Sequence record: NC_015719.1
From: Escherichia phage K30
DNA length: 40,940 bases
Direction: 5' to 3' (one strand)
Shown piece after piece: positions 2,053 through 40,940 of this stretch. The position numbers and the translations under genes were made by a program. The notes beneath the pieces were generated by a model. It made no database searches. It worked only from the letters and a program-made list of their open reading frames with translations, and was not told the origin of the DNA. Within the stretch, counting starts at the first letter, position 1, and every line of letters begins with the position of its first letter.

Positions 2053-3057
2053 ATGAACTACACCGACATGCAAGCACGCTTAGACGTCATCCGCAACCTG
2101 CCAATCTGTGAACTTGACAAGCGCCAGCCGCTGCTGGTATCACTCATCGCAAACATCGTGAACTACGAGACGTCTGACGGTGACGATACGGACAGCAATT
2201 GGGGTCTTGAAAGTCAGGGCTACTGGCAAACCTTGAAGATTAAGGCTAAAGACGCTGGGTTTAACCTGCTGGGTAATGGCCACTTCAGCGCGGCGTTTAA
2301 GCACGAGCTACTGCCGGGCAAGGTCATTAAGGTTGGCTTTAAGAAAGAAGACTCAGGGGCCGCCTATGTGGCTTTCTGTCGGATGCACCAAGGTCGGGTA
2401 GGGATACCTAATGTCTATCACGTAGCGCGTCACGCTGGCTGCTATACGGTGGTACTTGATGAGCTGGAACCATGTCAGCGCCGTGATAACCATAAGCACG
2501 ACCATTATGCAGACCTTGCGTATTACTTTGTCGAGGGAGAACCAGACCCAGAGGTATACGCGAAGGATGATCTACCATTCATCGAGACGTGCCAGATGAT
2601 TCGTAAGTTCTTCTACGGGATTGCATCATTTGATATGCATAGTGGCAACATTATGTTTACACCGGATGGTAAACCAGTGATTACCGACCCAGTGTCATTC
2701 TCAGCGGACCGGGACCGCAAGCCTTTCTCGCTGGAGCCTGAGGGCCTGCTCGCAGAGATTGAGCAGATAGCGCACGACAAGATGATTGAACGCTGTAAGC
2801 GTAACAAGGCCAAACGTGACCGTGACAGTACGCTGTGTCGTGCCCGTAGAGCAAACAACAAGGCCCGTAGAAACCGCGCTAAAGCAGCCGCGCGATGGCG
2901 GAAGGAGCGGGAAAAGCGTGTTGCCGAGCGCTTTAAGTATGACCTTGCGAAAATCGAGGAGCGCGTTCTAGCGTGGCAAGTGGGACCCGGCCTAGCAATA
3001 CAACAAGGCAAGCCGCTACCAATCGACAACTACCTTCAAGGTAGACTTATGGGTTAA
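2053..3057 (+). CDS. 0.7: Serine/threonine protein kinase, host shut-off (T7 gene 0.7)
   Basis: 334 aa; recalled strong similarity to T7 gp0.7 (LPICELDKRQ, AGF..LGNGHFSAA, KVGFKKEDSGAAY.AFCRM, FDMHSGNIMF); synteny. Confidence 0.9.
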   Translation: MNYTDMQARLDVIRNLPICELDKRQPLLVSLIANIVNYETSDGDDTDSNWGLESQGYWQTLKIKAKDAGFNLLGNGHFSAAFKHELLPGKVIKVGFKKEDSGAAYVAFCRMHQGRVGIPNVYHVARHAGCYTVVLDELEPCQRRDNHKHDHYADLAYYFVEGEPDPEVYAKDDLPFIETCQMIRKFFYGIASFDMHSGNIMFTPDGKPVITDPVSFSADRDRKPFSLEPEGLLAEIEQIAHDKMIERCKRNKAKRDRDSTLCRARRANNKARRNRAKAAARWRKEREKRVAERFKYDLAKIEERVLAWQVGPGLAIQQGKPLPIDNYLQGRLMG

Positions 3058-3070
3058 CGAGGTGTATCTT

Positions 3071-3094
3071 AGGTGCCTCCACCGCGAGGCACCT
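3071..3094 (+). promoter_or_regulatory. Perfect 9-bp stem-loop upstream of gene 1 (possible R1-type processing site)
   Basis: aggtgcctc / caccgc / gaggcacct read directly; no T-run follows, so not a classic intrinsic terminator. Confidence 0.35.
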
Positions 3095-3144
3095 ATAGAT
3101 AAACTTTATTCACCGCCAGTTTACTGGCACCAAAGAGGCACACA

Positions 3145-5963: not shown

Positions 5964-6524
5964 ATGACTTACTCAATCGTTGTAACCATCTTGTTAATCA
6001 TCACCACAACGCTCTTCATTGTGAGTCTTCGCAATGCAATACGCAACGAAGAACTATTGGGGCGTTTGATTCAAGAAGCAAACTCCCAGCTTAGTGATGC
6101 GTCGACCAAGGTTCTTCGACTGACGGACAAGGCTAACTTCCTTGGTAAACAGGTGCGTTACTTAGAGAGTGAACTTGAGGAAGAAAAGCAGAAGGTGCTA
6201 GATGTGTACGAACTACGGAAGCGACAGCGGGACCGCATGAAGTTCCTGAGCAAGTCTCTTAAGGAAGCCCAAGATGAGCTGATGATGGTCTCTGACCTGA
6301 TTCACGTTAAGTTCACCGCTGTGTTACCTGATGGCACTCGCTCTAAGACTCTCTTTAAGTTAGGACTTGGACCTTGTGGTCTACACGTTAAGTCCCTTCG
6401 CTGGACTGAGCTAGACGACCGCTATCTGATAGACCAGCTGTGCACCAACGGCGAGCGCAAGCAGTTCACTTACTTTAAGAGCGAAGTAGTAGGGCGTATC
6501 GAGTTCCGCCACGGTAAGGTTTAA
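5964..6524 (+). CDS. Hypothetical membrane-anchored coiled-coil protein (gene 1.05 position)
   Basis: 186 aa; N-terminal hydrophobic helix, heptad-like charged stretch, about 80-aa C-terminal domain; AAAGAGG RBS; sits between two phage promoters. Confidence 0.6.
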   Translation: MTYSIVVTILLIITTTLFIVSLRNAIRNEELLGRLIQEANSQLSDASTKVLRLTDKANFLGKQVRYLESELEEEKQKVLDVYELRKRQRDRMKFLSKSLKEAQDELMMVSDLIHVKFTAVLPDGTRSKTLFKLGLGPCGLHVKSLRWTELDDRYLIDQLCTNGERKQFTYFKSEVVGRIEFRHGKV

Positions 6525-6545
6525 TTAGGGCACACTATCAGGAAC
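6523..6545 (+). promoter_or_regulatory. Variant phage promoter (phi1.1B-like), aattagggcacactatCAggaac
   Basis: Upstream half matches the consensus exactly; the initiation region is TATCAGG instead of TATAGGG. Confidence 0.55.
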
Positions 6546-6547
6546 AT

Positions 6548-6578
6548 ACTCAAGGTCATCGTTCGGTGGCCTTTATGA
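6548..6578 (+). promoter_or_regulatory. RNase III-type processing hairpin (R1.1-like)
   Basis: actcaaggtcatc-gttc-ggtggcctttatga: 9-bp stem with G:U pairs; same conserved flanks as T7 R1.1 (recalled). Confidence 0.6.
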
Positions 6579-6609
6579 ATGTCCCTAACAACCACTCAGG
6601 AGTAACACC

Positions 6610-6789: not shown

Positions 6790-7056
6790 ATGGCTGAGCA
6801 AACTAAATGGCTGTTCGATGGTAGCACTTCACAGTGGTCACGATTGGGCGCTACCGAACGAAGACTGACGGATGAGACGGGACTACATGTAATCATGACG
6901 TATATCCATTTCAACCGCACAGTTTTACTCTCCGTGTATGAACCAAGACCAGATTATGACGAGGTACTCATAGAGAAATCCTTCAGTCGCTGGTCGATTG
7001 ACTCAGCGTCAGACTGGCTGGCAAAACTCACAGCCGACTACTCAAGTTGGAAGTAA
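6790..7056 (+). CDS. 1.2: Gene 1.2-like protein (candidate host dGTPase inhibitor)
   Basis: 88 aa; position between 1.1 and ligase; weak recalled similarity at the C-terminus (..DW..K..WK). Confidence 0.55.
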   Translation: MAEQTKWLFDGSTSQWSRLGATERRLTDETGLHVIMTYIHFNRTVLLSVYEPRPDYDEVLIEKSFSRWSIDSASDWLAKLTADYSSWK

Positions 7057-7077
7057 TTAGGACACACTATAGGCAGA
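7055..7077 (+). promoter_or_regulatory. Phage RNAP promoter (phi1.3-like), aattaggacacactataggcaga
   Basis: Consensus match; overlaps the gene 1.2 stop. Confidence 0.8.
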
Positions 7078-7110
7078 CTCAAGGTCATCGGATTCCGGTG
7101 GCCTTTATGA
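7077..7110 (+). promoter_or_regulatory. RNase III-type processing hairpin (R1.3-like)
   Basis: actcaaggtcatcgg-att-ccggtggcctttatga; about 11-bp stem. Confidence 0.6.
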
Positions 7111-7156
7111 TTGCTTATTGCACACTAAATAAATACTACACTTCGGAGACATCATC

Positions 7157-9237: not shown

Positions 9238-9254
9238 GGCACACTATAGGGACA
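9232..9254 (+). promoter_or_regulatory. Phage RNAP promoter (phi2.5-like), cattagggcacactatagggaca
   Basis: Consensus match. Confidence 0.8.
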
Positions 9255-13117: not shown

Positions 13118-13425
13118 TGACTACCAAAGCTAAATTCCCCGGTAATACCATTCAGCTGTCCGACACTGTAGACCAGTGGGGCCGCAAGGTTCACATCAAC
13201 GTTCGCAACGACAAGGTTACTCTGGTCTACCGCTGGAAGGCTAAGAGCGATAATCGTGCACATACTCAGCGTGTGACACTTGACGATGTTCAAGCAGCTC
13301 GACTACTGGCCTCCGTGGCTGTCGCAGCGACTGTGGCGGTTGGTGAAGATAAGGTGCGTGAGGCTATCCTGAGTAAAGAGGTAGGCTCGACGGCAACCCG
13401 ACTGGCTGAAGCGTCAGAAGCCTAG
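13117..13425 (+). CDS. 4.5: Gene 4.5-like hypothetical protein
   Basis: 102 aa; TAATG overlap with 4.3; call is by position only. Confidence 0.5.
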   Translation: MTTKAKFPGNTIQLSDTVDQWGRKVHINVRNDKVTLVYRWKAKSDNRAHTQRVTLDDVQAARLLASVAVAATVAVGEDKVREAILSKEVGSTATRLAEASEA

Positions 13426-13431
13426 TGATAA

Positions 13432-13467
13432 ACTCAAGGTCATTACTATATGTAGTGGCCTTTATGA
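13432..13467 (+). promoter_or_regulatory. RNase III-type processing hairpin (R4.7-like)
   Basis: actcaaggtcattac-tatat-gtagtggcctttatga; about 11-bp stem. Confidence 0.6.
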
Positions 13468-13500
13468 TTATCATACACAACATATTGAGAGGACATAACC

Positions 13501-16545: not shown

Positions 16546-16706
16546 GTAACGTCACCATTAGTTCAGACCGCCTTAAATACTTAGAGAGTCGGGACGAAAT
16601 CCTGAGCGCTCTTGAGGCAGGCGGCGTAGATAACTGGGAGTGGTACTCAGAGTCGTTGCAGAAAGCAGGGCTTCTGGATGACGATGAGGAGGAAGACGAT
16701 GAGTAA
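16542..16706 (+). CDS. 5.9: Gene 5.9-like small acidic protein (candidate RecBCD inhibitor)
   Basis: 54 aa, acidic C-terminus; position between 5.7 and 6; call is by synteny. Confidence 0.5.
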   Translation: MSNVTISSDRLKYLESRDEILSALEAGGVDNWEWYSESLQKAGLLDDDEEEDDE

Positions 16707-17604
16707 GCACACATTGTTATCCTTCAGAGACTACCGGGCAACCCAGAAGATTGCCAAAGGTGTCCTTGTGATGGATGGTGACTGGTTGGTATTTCAAGCT
16801 ATGAGTGCCGCTGAGTTCGATGCCTCTTGGGAGGAGGAGATTTGGCACCGCTGCTGTGACCATGCTAAGGCTCGCGAGATTCTGGAGAACTCCATTAAGT
16901 CCTACAAGGGCCGCAAGAAGGCATGGAAGAATGCTGATGTAGTCCTCGCGTTCACTGACCGTGTCAACTGGCGTAAGCTGCTGGTGGACCCAACGTACAA
17001 AGAGAACCGCGCAGTCGTTAAGAAGCCTGTGGGTTACTACGAGTTCCTAGAGTCTGTCTTCGAGACCTACACGTGTGTCCTTGAGCCTCAGCTCGAGGGT
17101 GATGACGTGATGGGTATCATCGGGTCTGGCCCTCTCGTGTACAACTATGAGAAGGCTGTACTGGTCGCCTGTGACAAGGACTTTAAGACAGTCCCGGATT
17201 GCGACTTCCTGTGGTGTACGACTGGTAACATCCTCGTGCAGACGCAGGAGACCGCTGACTACTGGCATCTCTTCCAGACTATCAAGGGAGACATCACCGA
17301 TGGTTACGGTGGGATTCCCGGATGGGGCGATACCGCTGAGGACTTCCTCAAGGAACCATTCATTGTGGAGCCTGTAACATCCGTACTGAAGTCTGGTAAG
17401 AACAAAGGCCAAGAGGTAACCAAGTGGGTGAAACGCGCTCCTGAGCCGGGAGAGACGCTCTGGGACTGCATTAAGTCCATTGGTGCCAAAGCAGGGATGA
17501 CCGAAGAGGAAGTAATCAAGCAGGGCCAGATGGCTCGAATCCTCCGTTCTGATGAGTACAACATCGAGACTGGGGAGATTACTCTATGGCAACCGGGCAG
17601 CTGA
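16699..17604 (+). CDS. 6: 5'-3' exonuclease (T7 gene 6)
   Basis: Recalled long identity blocks with T7 gp6 (GILVMDGDWLVFQAMSAAEFDASWEEEIWHRCCDHAKAR); start taken at the ATG with AGGAGG RBS rather than the upstream ATG at 16678. Confidence 0.95.
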   Translation: MSKHTLLSFRDYRATQKIAKGVLVMDGDWLVFQAMSAAEFDASWEEEIWHRCCDHAKAREILENSIKSYKGRKKAWKNADVVLAFTDRVNWRKLLVDPTYKENRAVVKKPVGYYEFLESVFETYTCVLEPQLEGDDVMGIIGSGPLVYNYEKAVLVACDKDFKTVPDCDFLWCTTGNILVQTQETADYWHLFQTIKGDITDGYGGIPGWGDTAEDFLKEPFIVEPVTSVLKSGKNKGQEVTKWVKRAPEPGETLWDCIKSIGAKAGMTEEEVIKQGQMARILRSDEYNIETGEITLWQPGS

Positions 17605-17621
17605 TTCTTATTGTCCTGACC

Positions 17622-17696
17622 ATGGGCTTAGTCGCTCGTGGTCTCTGGATGTTGGTCTTAATTATCAAGCAGATAGTTGAGCATAAAATAGAGTGA
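17622..17696 (+). CDS. Possible 24-aa hydrophobic peptide (gene 6.3 position)
   Basis: Short ORF after gene 6; no clear RBS. Confidence 0.15.
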   Translation: MGLVARGLWMLVLIIKQIVEHKIE

Positions 17697-17697
17697 T

Positions 17698-17746
17698 AAA
17701 CTCATGGGCACAATTAGGACCCACTATAGGGAAGTGCCCATTATGA
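17698..17746 (+). promoter_or_regulatory. RNase III-type hairpin enclosing a phage promoter (R6.5/phi6.5-like)
   Basis: 8-bp stem atgggcac (17704-17711) / gtgcccat (17734-17741) brackets the promoter core; flanks aaactca...ttatga are those of the hairpin family. Confidence 0.55.
17712..17734 (+). promoter_or_regulatory. Phage RNAP promoter (phi6.5-like), aattaggacccactatagggaag
   Basis: Consensus match. Confidence 0.8.
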
Positions 17747-17781
17747 TTATTACTTAAAGATTACTTAAAGAGGAGACTCAA

Positions 17782-18018
17782 ATGTTAAAACCTATAGAGC
17801 ACATCCTTAACAATCCTAATGACCTTCCTGACGTACCGCGAGCTGTCAAGGAGTACCTACAGTCTCGCTTCAATGCCGACTTCCTGTATCAGTCAGAGGT
17901 CCGTAAGCTACGTGAGGCTGGCCACAGTGAGGAGTTCATCTCCGGGGTACTGTATGGTCACTACATGGCTTCTCGTGTCCTTGATGAGATGGAGGGCCGT
18001 CAGCGTGCACTTGAATAA
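17782..18018 (+). CDS. 6.5: Gene 6.5-like hypothetical protein
   Basis: 78 aa; AAGAGGAG RBS; call is by position. Confidence 0.6.
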   Translation: MLKPIEHILNNPNDLPDVPRAVKEYLQSRFNADFLYQSEVRKLREAGHSEEFISGVLYGHYMASRVLDEMEGRQRALE

Positions 18019-22504: not shown

Positions 22505-22513
22505 TAAGCCAAA

Positions 22514-22551
22514 CCCCTTGGGGACCACTCACGGTCTCTGAGGGGTTTTTT
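22514..22551 (+). terminator. T-phi-like terminator for phage RNAP
   Basis: ccccttggggacc-actcac-ggtctctgagggg followed by tttttt; resembles T7 T-phi (AACCCCTTGGGG...GAGGGGTTTTTTG) from memory. Confidence 0.8.
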
Positions 22552-25545: not shown

Positions 25546-25570
25546 CTGAAGGAATCCTTATGGTGTGCTC

Positions 25571-25593
25571 AATTAGGGCACACTATAGGGAGA
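25571..25593 (+). promoter_or_regulatory. Phage RNAP promoter (phi13-like), aattagggcacactatagggaga
   Basis: Exact consensus match. Confidence 0.85.
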
Positions 25594-37414: not shown

Positions 37415-37672
37415 ATGGACCTGATTAAGTTCCTCGAAATGTTAGACACTGAGATGGCTCAGCAGATGCTCATGGACCTGAAGAATCCAGAGAAGCGGAC
37501 CCCTCAGTTGTACAACGCCATTGGTAAACTACTGGAGCGTCACAAGTTCCAAATCTCTAAGCTAACCCCTGACGTTAACATCTTGGGTGGACTGGCTGAG
37601 GGTCTGGAGGCTTACAACTCCAAGGTGGGTGCTGATGGTCTTACAGACGACGATACGTTCACCCTACAGTGA
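37415..37672 (+). CDS. 18: Terminase small subunit (T7 gene 18)
   Basis: 85 aa; recalled similarity to T7 gp18 (FLEMLDT.MAQ.ML.DL, PQLYNAI.KLL.RHKFQI.KL.PDV.ILGGLA, GLTDDD..TLQ). Confidence 0.9.
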   Translation: MDLIKFLEMLDTEMAQQMLMDLKNPEKRTPQLYNAIGKLLERHKFQISKLTPDVNILGGLAEGLEAYNSKVGADGLTDDDTFTLQ

Positions 37673-37675
37673 TAT

Positions 37676-37709
37676 ACTCAAGGTACTACTATATGTAGTG
37701 CCTTTATGA
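37676..37709 (+). promoter_or_regulatory. RNase III-type processing hairpin (R18.5-like)
   Basis: actcaaggtactac-tatat-gtagtgcctttatga; about 10-bp stem. Confidence 0.6.
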
Positions 37710-37768
37710 ATGTCATTGCACTACGCTAGGCGTTCCTACGTGAAATCTGAGAAACAACGGGAGGCATT

Positions 37769-40540: not shown

Positions 40541-40940
40541 GTGTATATCTCACAGTTTACACTTTTGGTTATCCCCCGGTACCCTCTAAGTTAGCCCAAA
40601 GTAACCATAGGCCACCCTAAACCTTCGGTTTAACCTTAGGTTGGACTGTTGGGAACCTTGGGTGATACTATATGTAGTGGTTAGTGTGACCTTGGGATAC
40701 TATATGTTGATCTCTCTGTATCCCTATCTGTTGGTACTCTCTAAGTATCCACTAAGTATCCACTAAGTAACAACCTGAGGTTAGACCTGAGGACATCCAT
40801 CGACACTATACCTAAGGTTAACTATGCGTCTAACGTTTAGTTACTATAAGGCTATTGGTGACCATTGTCCATACACCAATCAATTAGGTCACACTATAGG
40901 GAGACACTTAAAGTATTACTAAGAGACCTTTACCATAAAA
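40541..40940. repeat. Right copy of 400-bp direct repeat (includes a second copy of the phiOL-like promoter at about 40875-40897)
   Basis: Identical to positions 1-400 by direct reading. Confidence 0.8.

What the first reader, a model, noticed from the sequence alone, without database searches (positions are those of the whole stretch)
17698..17746. A phage promoter sits inside the loop of a processing-type hairpin
The stem atgggcac / gtgcccat encloses the promoter core at 17712-17733, so upstream transcripts would fold this promoter sequence into the loop of an RNase III-type hairpin. T7 has a comparable phi6.5/R6.5 overlap. The arrangement couples processing of early/middle readthrough transcripts with initiation of the late operon.
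Basis: partly seen in the sequence, partly recalled or inferred. Interest (0 to 1): 0.45.

Follow-up and report, generated by a model that had tools for sequence, protein, structure and literature searches.

The report
Phage promoter nested in RNase III hairpin
In this K11-like Klebsiella phage, the late promoter before gene 6.5 lies inside the loop of an RNA hairpin that matches the known R6.5 RNase III processing site of phages T7 and T3, so the finding is real but is a long-known arrangement.

Summary
ATGGGCAC (17704-17711) pairs with GTGCCCAT (17734-17741), and the 22-nt loop (17712-17733) is positions -17..+5 of a K11-type phage promoter (+1 = G17729).

An 8-bp inverted repeat is not rare in this window. 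The whole 65-nt hairpin folds far better than shuffles (z = -4.3).

It is the positional and sequence counterpart of R6.5/phi6.5:
- The T3 and phiYeO3-12 GenBank records annotate an RNase III stem-loop R6.5 with promoter phi6.5 nested inside it.
- Across 15 distinct relatives, 6 of 9 upper-stem pairs show changes on both sides and 97% of cells stay paired.
- G·U pairs make the structure specific to the + strand, so it acts as RNA.
- A covariance model built only from seven other annotated T3 RNase III sites hits 17691-17755 over its full length (39 bits, E ~ 8e-8). It also finds five more such hairpins in the window.

Transcripts reading through from upstream can form the hairpin. Promoter-initiated transcripts lack the 5' arms and cannot.

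Cleavage itself is inferred, not shown. Verdict: interpretation supported; a new member of a known kind; low interest.

The parts
17691..17699 (+). Lower stem, 5' arm (GAGUGAUAA). It contains the tandem stop codons TGA (17694-17696) and TAA (17697-17699) of gene 6.3.
   Evidence: MFE and centroid folds. Full-length match to the covariance model of T3 RNase III sites. The gene 6.3 end follows from the K11 annotation.
17700..17703 (+). 5' side of the internal loop (ACUC)
   Evidence: The same ACUC occurs in T7 and T3 R6.5 and in other T3 RNase III sites.
17704..17711 (+). Upper stem, 5' arm (AUGGGCAC), lying at -25..-18 relative to the promoter start
   Evidence: Sequence and covariation.
17712..17734 (+). 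phi6.5 promoter, -17..+6 (AATTAGGACCCACTATAGGGAAG), with +1 = G17729. Positions 17712-17733 form the hairpin loop in readthrough RNA.
   Evidence: One of 14 consensus copies in the window. Annotated as promoter phi6.5 in K11.
17734..17741 (+). Upper stem, 3' arm (GUGCCCAU), which is +6..+13 of the phi6.5 transcript
17742..17746 (+). 3' side of the internal loop (UAUGA). This is the predicted site of single-strand RNase III cleavage, around U17744/G17745 by analogy with T7.
   Evidence: The motif is shared with annotated T3 sites. The cleavage position is inferred, using PMC1540722 for the internal-loop rule and my recollection of the T7 R6.5 coordinate.
17747..17755 (+). Lower stem, 3' arm (UUAUUACUU)
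   Evidence: Invariant in 53 Przondovirus loci.
17586..17696 (+). Gene 6.3 (36 codons), whose stop codon lies in the lower stem
   Evidence: K11 annotation transferred to the window and the sequence.
17782..18018 (+). Gene 6.5 (DUF2717 protein), the first gene downstream. Its ribosome-binding site GAGGAG is at 17770-17775.

Best explanation
The element at 17691-17755 is the Przondovirus (K11-like) ortholog of the T7/T3 RNase III processing site R6.5, with the late promoter phi6.5 nested in its terminal loop.

Shown: the sequence forms a two-helix hairpin. A 9-bp lower stem and an 8-bp upper stem are joined by an asymmetric ACUC/UAUGA internal loop. The hairpin belongs to the same family as annotated T3 RNase III sites, and its pairing is kept by compensatory changes across genera.

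Inferred: phage RNA polymerase starting at upstream promoters (for example +1 at 9249 and 10918) meets no strong terminator before 22511, so it transcribes through 17691-17755. That RNA folds, and the host (Klebsiella) RNase III nicks it once in the 3' side of the internal loop, near 17744/17745. This leaves a protective hairpin, with the promoter sequence in its loop, at the 3' end of the gene 6/6.3 message. The gene 6.5 message then starts with a monophosphate end at about GAUUAUUACUU.

Transcripts initiated at the promoter itself start at G17729. They contain only the 3' arms, are essentially unstructured, and so escape processing. The two classes of gene 6.5 mRNA would differ by about 16 nt at the 5' end and in phosphate status.
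For: - Structure: MFE and centroid folds give the two-helix hairpin. z = -4.29, and 0 of 200 shuffles fold as well.
- Orthology: the T3 and phiYeO3-12 records annotate stem_loop 'RNase III recognition site R6.5' (T3 17135-17206) with phi6.5 (17160-17182) nested inside. It sits between gene 6.3 and gene 6.5 as here, and the flanks align exactly. T7 has the same layout. The literature treats R6.5/phi6.5 as paired (PMC6938266). [quoted passage not shown]
- Covariation: on 15 distinct sequences 97.4% of cells are paired, against 31-57% when the partner is slid. The covariation score is 0.389 against at most 0.10. In the upper helix 6 of 9 pairs change on both sides. At least eight different upper-stem sequences keep pairing across genera.
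- Strand and RNA level: G·U pairs are frequent (cols 1, 5, 18, 21). These would be A·C mismatches on the other strand.
- Family membership: a covariance model built from seven other annotated T3 sites, excluding R6.5, hits 17691-17755 over its full length with all 17 pairs standard (39.3 bits, E ~ 8e-8). The six best hits are all on the + strand, next to gene boundaries.
- Selection: in 53 Przondovirus loci, 17692-17764 is invariant except for the promoter -10..-8 block and two pairing-compatible changes (G17695A, A17710G). The adjacent gene 6.3 coding sequence varies.
- Promoter-initiated RNA (from 17729) is unstructured: -6.8 kcal/mol, z = +0.74.
- Readthrough: there is no strong terminator-like site between the upstream phage promoters and 17729. 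The Tphi-like terminator is at 22511-22548.
- Substrate rule: about two helical turns, coaxial short helices, and an internal loop that restricts cleavage to one strand and leaves a protective 3' hairpin (PMC1540722).
Against: - No cleavage data exist for this phage or any K11-like phage in what I could search.
- The base of the upper stem is AUGGGC/GCCCAU. The other five hits in the window and seven T3 sites have AAGGUC/GGCCUU. Base pairs next to the cleavage site tune RNase III binding and cleavage, and binding-competent but uncleaved variants are known (PMC1540722). Reactivity could therefore be weaker or absent.
- The upper stem is only 8 bp, closed by a 22-nt loop, which is thermodynamically marginal on its own.
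- T7 grows on hosts lacking RNase III (stated in PMC6938266), so any fitness effect is modest.
Confidence: 0.85

Rival explanations
1. The hairpin is a conserved RNA structure that RNase III binds but does not cleave, or that works without RNase III. For example it could act as a 3'-end stabiliser, or as a structure that modulates translation termination at gene 6.3 and initiation at gene 6.5.
For: - The base of the upper stem departs from the AAGGUC/GGCCUU seen in the other RNase III-type hairpins.
- Base-pair changes next to the cleavage site can uncouple binding from cleavage (PMC1540722).
- The gene 6.3 stop codons lie in the lower stem, so terminating ribosomes would open it.
Against: - It is positionally orthologous to sites annotated as RNase III sites in T3 and phiYeO3-12 and named R6.5 in T7.
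- It matches the RNase III-site model over its full length.
- T3's own annotated R6.5 also departs from AAGGUC (AAGGCU).
Confidence: 0.09
2. The inverted repeat acts on DNA. It could be a cruciform or a protein-binding palindrome that regulates promoter phi6.5, or the footprint of a mobile or recombining promoter cassette.
For: - The arms abut the promoter exactly.
- Within Przondovirus, two promoter alleles sit between identical arms: 29 against 24 of 53 loci.
- Three T7-like phages have lost the promoter precisely from between the arms. This could be read as cassette gain or loss.
Against: - Pairing relies on G·U wobble pairs, which work on one strand only.
- The lower stem and internal-loop architecture match RNA processing sites that carry no promoter, such as 13423-13475.
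- The hairpin persists when the promoter is absent.
- None of the other 13 promoters has flanking arms of this kind.
Confidence: 0.04
3. It is a chance palindrome that happens to flank a promoter.
For: Perfect 8-bp inverted repeats with loops of 3-40 nt are no more frequent in the window than in shuffles: 15 against 24 +/- 6.5.
Against: - The extended hairpin has z = -4.29.
- There is compensatory covariation across genera.
- It matches an independent model at E ~ 8e-8.
- It is invariant across 53 related genomes.
Confidence: 0.01

Closest known systems
T7 RNase III site R6.5 overlapping class III promoter phi6.5 (Dunn & Studier 1983, from my own knowledge; discussed in PMC6938266)
   Same: - Same genomic slot, between the gene 6.3 stop codon and gene 6.5.
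- Near-identical lower stem ((A/G)AGUGAUAA / UUAUUACUU).
- Same internal loop (ACUC / UAYGA).
- The promoter sits in the terminal loop, with the start site upstream of the cleavage site.
   Different: - The upper stem is completely different in sequence and shorter: AUGGGCAC/GUGCCCAU (8 bp) against AAGGUCCCUA/UAGGGGCCUU (10 bp).
- The promoter has K11 specificity, not T7 specificity.
- Here the loop is exactly -17..+5; T7 has 3 extra nucleotides upstream.
T3 (AJ318471) and phiYeO3-12 (AJ251805) 'RNase III recognition site R6.5' with nested promoter phi6.5, as annotated in GenBank
   Same: An annotated stem_loop of 71-72 nt with the 23-bp promoter nested inside. Flanks, internal loop and gene context are identical.
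   Different: The upper stem is AAGGCUCUCU/AGGGAGCCUU. Its 3' arm begins right after +6 of the transcript. The promoter has T3 specificity.
T3 R13 / phi13 (annotated) and its counterpart in this window at 25555-25591
   Same: This is another case where a phage promoter is embedded in a hairpin annotated as an RNase III site.
   Different: There the promoter itself (-12..+4) forms the 3' arm of a near-perfect 16-bp hairpin. It has no internal loop and no ACUC/UAUGA motif.
T7 R1.1 and related canonical T7-group RNase III substrates (Nicholson laboratory model substrates; PMC1540722)
   Same: Two short coaxial helices with an internal loop. These give single-strand cleavage and leave a protective 3' hairpin on the upstream product. 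The window has five further hairpins of this type.
   Different: Canonical sites have small terminal loops (3-8 nt) and an AAGGUC/GGCCUU base to the upper stem. This one has a 22-nt loop carrying a promoter and an AUGGGC/GCCCAU base.

Membership tests
T7-group RNase III processing site (R site), specifically R6.5 | A hairpin of two short coaxial helices, about two helical turns in total, separated by an asymmetric internal loop | tested here: met
   9-bp lower stem, 4x5 internal loop and 8-bp upper stem in both the MFE and centroid folds; z = -4.29. The criterion comes from PMC1540722.
T7-group RNase III processing site (R site), specifically R6.5 | Sequence and structure match to independently annotated RNase III sites of a T7-group phage | tested here: met
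   A covariance model built from T3 R0.3, R0.5, R1, R1.1, R1.3, R4.7 and R18.5 (R6.5 excluded) hits 17691-17755 on the + strand. The score is 39.3 bits, E ~ 8e-8, model positions 1-51 of 51, with 17 of 17 pairs standard.
T7-group RNase III processing site (R site), specifically R6.5 | Syntenic position: it starts at the gene 6.3 stop codon, precedes gene 6.5, and encloses promoter phi6.5 | tested here: met
   K11, T7, T3 and phiYeO3-12 annotations plus the alignment.
T7-group RNase III processing site (R site), specifically R6.5 | Base pairing maintained in relatives by compensatory change, on the transcribed strand | tested here: met
   97.4% of cells are paired; 6 of 9 upper-stem pairs change on both sides; slid controls give 31-57%; G·U pairs are present. 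More divergent genera also keep a stem around the promoter.
T7-group RNase III processing site (R site), specifically R6.5 | AAGGUC...GGCCUU at the base of the upper stem. This is common but not defining: T3 R6.5, R1, R3.8 and R13 also lack it. | tested here: inconclusive
   The window has AUGGGC...GCCCAU. The first, third and fourth pairs are retained and the second is flipped from A-U to U-A. The effect on RNase III reactivity is unknown.
T7-group RNase III processing site (R site), specifically R6.5 | Site-specific cleavage by host RNase III, in vivo or in vitro | not testable with these tools
   I found no end-mapping or cleavage data for K11-like phages in the searchable literature.
K11-type single-subunit RNA polymerase promoter | A 23-bp consensus (AATTAGGGCACACTATAGGGAGA type) on the coding strand upstream of a gene | tested here: met
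   AATTAGGACCCACTATAGGGAAG at 17712-17734. It is one of 14 copies in the window and is annotated phi6.5 in K11.
K11-type single-subunit RNA polymerase promoter | Initiation at +1 (G17729) by the phage polymerase | not testable with these tools
   This needs transcript 5'-end mapping.
Intrinsic transcription terminator | A G+C-rich stem with a small loop, followed directly by a U run | tested here: not met
   The terminator scan does not report it. The loop is 22 nt and no U run follows. The real Tphi-like terminator is at 22511-22548.

The most novel reading that the evidence does not exclude
The nesting itself may be selected, rather than being a by-product of compact genomes. A promoter sits inside a covarying hairpin upstream of gene 6.5 in Przondovirus, Teseptimavirus, Teetrevirus, Berlinvirus, Helsettvirus and Unyawovirus. 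It does so even in Pseudomonas phages (Pifdecavirus, Troedvirus), where both the stem and the apparent promoter sequence are unrelated; I recognised the promoter there only by resemblance to gh-1-type promoters.

If so, the layout would work as a switch. Middle-phase readthrough RNA would be cut and given a monophosphate 5' end. Late, promoter-initiated RNA would be immune to cutting and keep a triphosphate 5' end. Gene 6.5 and the downstream structural genes would then have different stability or translation at different times.

The two promoter alleles inside an invariant stem and the natural promoter-less hairpins would be natural variants of that switch.
Probability: 0.12. Interest if true: 0.4.

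Novelty: new member of a known kind. Interest (0 to 1): 0.15.

Why it matters
The practical value is mainly in annotation and engineering. More than 400 sequenced K11/KP32-like Klebsiella phages carry this region, and many are therapy candidates. The listed records annotate at most the promoter here, not the RNase III site.

Anyone deleting, moving or swapping the phi6.5 promoter would also destroy or split a conserved processing hairpin. The same applies to copying the promoter with its flanks as a K11-promoter part. Such edits would change the ends of the gene 6 and gene 6.5 messages.

Biologically, the finding adds a further genus, and a clean covariation data set, to a feature known in T7 and T3 since the 1980s. 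It does not open a new question by itself.

Tried and rejected
- Rfam gathering-threshold scan of the whole window: no hits. None of Rfam's 4227 families matched, so this says nothing for or against the site.
- T7 records NC_001604 and V01146: as shown by the tool they list phi6.5 but no RNase III feature. I therefore took the annotation evidence from T3 and phiYeO3-12.
- Literature: searches for K11-like RNase III sites and for the phiYeO3-12 genome paper found nothing usable. The exact T7 R6.5 cleavage coordinate therefore rests on my memory only.
- Chance test on the 8-bp stem alone: not significant. The argument rests on the extended structure, covariation and the model match instead.
- Terminator reading: rejected.
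- Flanking arms as a general property of the promoters: rejected. None of the other 13 promoters has them, although phi13, the 7072 promoter and a degenerate promoter at 6522-6544 overlap other hairpins in different ways.
- L090 in alignment A2 has its 5' arm shifted by one column, so it adds spurious unpaired cells. I left it in rather than editing the alignment.
- Ghunavirus (gh-1-like) phages do not nest the promoter; the hairpin there starts at about +1. The arrangement is widespread but not universal.

Full report
**What the window is.** The window is the complete 40,940-bp contig of a K11/KP32-like Klebsiella podophage (Przondovirus, Studiervirinae). The region around the finding is 96-99% identical to several hundred Klebsiella phage genomes, and the window equals IMG/VR contig UViG_651703039 (L019). 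Gene order is that of T7: gene 6 exonuclease at 16678-17604, gene 6.3 at 17586-17696 and gene 6.5 at 17782-18018.

**Checking the observation.** ATGGGCAC (17704-17711) and GTGCCCAT (17734-17741) are exact reverse complements. The 22 nt between them are AATTAGGACCCACTATAGGGAA. That is -17..+5 of one of 14 copies of the phage promoter consensus in the window, with +1 at G17729. The K11 GenBank record annotates the same sequence as promoter phi6.5.

The 8-bp repeat alone is not remarkable. The window holds 15 perfect 8-bp inverted repeats with loops of 3-40 nt, and shuffles give 24 +/- 6.5.

GAGUGAUAA (17691-17699) pairs with UUAUUACUU (17747-17755), joined to the upper stem by an asymmetric internal loop ACUC / UAUGA. 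The whole element folds at -22.2 kcal/mol against -11.0 +/- 2.6 for shuffles (z = -4.29; 0 of 200 shuffles fold as well).

**Homology.** T7 has, at the same position, AAGUGAUAA-ACUC-AAGGUCCCUA-[phi6.5 promoter]-UAGGGGCCUU-UACGA-UUAUUACUU. The GenBank records of T3 and phiYeO3-12 annotate a stem_loop 'RNase III recognition site R6.5' with promoter phi6.5 nested inside. In T3 the stem_loop is 17135-17206 and the promoter 17160-17182, and the stem_loop starts at the gene 6.3 stop codon. In a five-way alignment the lower stem and both internal-loop strands are nearly identical, while the upper-stem arms differ.

The literature treats R6.5/phi6.5 as a pair in T7, with the start site upstream of the cut (PMC6938266). 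[quoted passage not shown]

**Covariation.** I collected the region upstream of gene 6.5 from 16 phage records of different genera and from 80 IMG/VR loci. I then ran the pair count on 15 distinct sequences (Przondovirus, T7-like, T3-like and Citrobacter YSYH-like), with these results:

- 97.4% of cells form standard pairs.
- When the 3' partner is slid by 1-3 columns, this drops to 31-57%.
- The covariation score is 0.389, against at most 0.10 for slid versions and 0.16 for shuffles.
- In the upper helix, 6 of 9 pairs show changes on both sides and 98.5% of cells stay paired.

At least eight unrelated upper-stem sequences enclose the promoter across genera. Berlinvirus, Helsettvirus, Unyawovirus and the Pseudomonas phages of Pifdecavirus and Troedvirus also place their apparent promoter inside a strongly folding hairpin (z from -3.3 to -5.8). 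Ghunavirus does not.

Many pairs are G·U. They would be A·C mismatches on the complementary strand, so the structure belongs to the + strand transcript and not to duplex DNA.

**Family membership, tested independently of R6.5.** T3's record annotates ten RNase III stem-loops. Most share the plan lower stem - (A)ACUC - AAGGUC...GGCCUU - UAUGA - lower stem. I built a covariance model from seven of them, leaving R6.5 out, and ran it over the window with filters off.

| Window hit | Strand | Bits | Likely counterpart / context |
|---|---|---|---|
| 13423-13475 | + | 43.8 | R4.7-like |
| 37667-37718 | + | 43.8 | R18.5-like |
| 6539-6587 | + | 43.2 | R1.1-like |
| 17691-17755 | + | 39.3 | the finding (E ~ 8e-8; full model length; all 17 pairs standard; promoter taken as a loop insertion) |
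| 7068-7119 | + | 36.2 | R1.3-like |
| 3059-3107 | + | 20.7 | R1-like, just before the RNA polymerase gene |

**Population data.** In 53 Przondovirus loci, 17692-17764 is invariant apart from a block at promoter positions -10..-8 and two single changes (G17695A and A17710G). Both single changes keep pairing. The gene 6.3 coding sequence just upstream varies at many sites.

Three T7-like phages (vB_Yep_9, vB_Yep_15 and AH67C600_Q5) carry the hairpin with the 30-nt promoter segment precisely missing, leaving AAGGUC-CAGG-GGCCUU. The hairpin is therefore kept without the promoter, which argues that it has a function of its own.

**Mechanism.** The hairpin, its family and its conservation are shown. 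The rest is inferred from established knowledge of T7-group transcription and of E. coli RNase III.

- Upstream phage promoters (+1 at 9249, 10918 and others) have no strong terminator before the Tphi-like hairpin at 22511-22548. Readthrough RNA should therefore cover 17691-17755 and fold.
- RNase III substrates typically span about two helical turns and can be built from coaxial short helices. Internal loops restrict cutting to one strand, leaving a 3' hairpin that protects the upstream product (PMC1540722).
- By analogy with T7, the cut should fall in UAUGA, near 17744/17745. The T7 coordinate is from my memory.
- RNA started at G17729 lacks both 5' arms and is essentially unstructured (-6.8 kcal/mol, z = +0.74), so it should escape processing.

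**Rivals.**

- Bound but uncleaved, or an RNase III-independent RNA structure (about 0.09). This stays open because the base of the upper stem is AUGGGC/GCCCAU rather than AAGGUC/GGCCUU, and such pairs tune reactivity.
- A DNA-level palindrome (about 0.04). This is disfavoured by the G·U pairs and by the promoter-less hairpins.
- Chance (about 0.01). This is excluded.

**Novelty and verdict.** The promoter-in-hairpin arrangement is known and annotated in T7, T3 and phiYeO3-12. T3 annotates a second nested case (phi13 in R13) and three overlapping ones. The K11-type records I saw annotate only the promoter.

This is therefore a new member of a known kind. The most novel reading still open is that the nesting itself is selected as a timing switch between processed and unprocessed 5' ends. 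I give that about 12%.

Noticed in passing
window 25555-25591: A 16-bp near-perfect hairpin (UCCUUAUGGUGUGCUC-AAUUA-GGGCACACUAUAGGGA). Its 3' arm is the phi13-like promoter itself (-12..+4; +1 at 25588). It matches the layout of T3's annotated R13 with nested phi13. It is a second and different kind of promoter/hairpin overlap in this genome.
   Followed up: partly
window 3059-3107, 6539-6587, 7068-7119, 13423-13475, 37667-37718: Five more hairpins, all on the + strand, match the model of annotated T3 RNase III sites. Several begin at or just after the stop codon of the upstream ORF: UAG at 13423-13425, UGA at 37670-37672, and an ORF ending at 3057. The GUGAUAA arm doubles as tandem stop codons.
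   Followed up: partly
window 6522-6544 and 7056-7078: A degenerate promoter (TTAATTAGGGCACACTATCAGGAAC, with -1 = C) overlaps the start of the 6539-6587 hairpin. The promoter with +1 at 7072 overlaps the lower stem of the 7068-7119 hairpin. This is the same pattern as T3 phi1.1/R1.1 and phi1.3/R1.3.
   Followed up: partly
window 17719-17721 (plus a 1-nt insertion after 17711); loci L019-L071: There are two promoter alleles inside the invariant hairpin among 53 Przondovirus loci. 29 carry AATTAGGACCCACTATA and 24 carry T+AATTAGGTAGCACTATA; all three of -10, -9 and -8 differ, and there is one extra T that adds a ninth stem pair. The pattern looks like allele replacement rather than stepwise mutation. 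The effect on promoter strength is unknown.
   Followed up: partly
L008 (Yersinia phage vB_Yep_9), ~70-120 nt upstream of its gene 6.5 start (locus position 401); also PV596791 and MZ833439: Three T7-like phages have the R6.5 hairpin with the 30-nt phi6.5 promoter segment cleanly absent, giving AAGGTC-CAGG-GGCCTT. I did not check whether this is natural loss or an assembly or laboratory artefact.
   Followed up: partly
window 17749-17770: An exact tandem duplication ATTACTTAAAG x2 overlaps the 3' arm of the lower stem and runs into the gene 6.5 ribosome-binding site. The second copy could pair with the 5' arm as an alternative 7-bp lower stem. 'ACTTAAAG'-like motifs recur in the leaders after many of the window's promoters.
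   Followed up: no
window 17660-17678 (inside gene 6.3): A small hairpin AAUUAUC-AAGCA-GAUAGUU is predicted. Its outer pair 17660/17678 is A-U here but G-C in most relatives (A:4/G:49 and T:9/C:44 of 53). G·U intermediates occur, and at least one locus, L034, carries an A/C mismatch.
   Followed up: no
window +1 sites 5893, 9249, 10918, 20148, 32874: Several promoter-initiated transcripts begin with a stem-loop formed by the initial GGGAGA/GGGACA sequence, for example GGGAGACCGCUUGGUUUCCCUC. This resembles what I recall of the 5' stem-loop of the T7 phi10 leader.
   Followed up: no
window ~324-391 and ~40871-40938: The sequence around the promoters with +1 at 352 and 40899 is identical for at least 68 bases (-28..+40). 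This is consistent with the direct terminal repeat of a complete T7-like genome. An inverted repeat ATTGGTG...CACCAAT lies just upstream of each copy.
   Followed up: no
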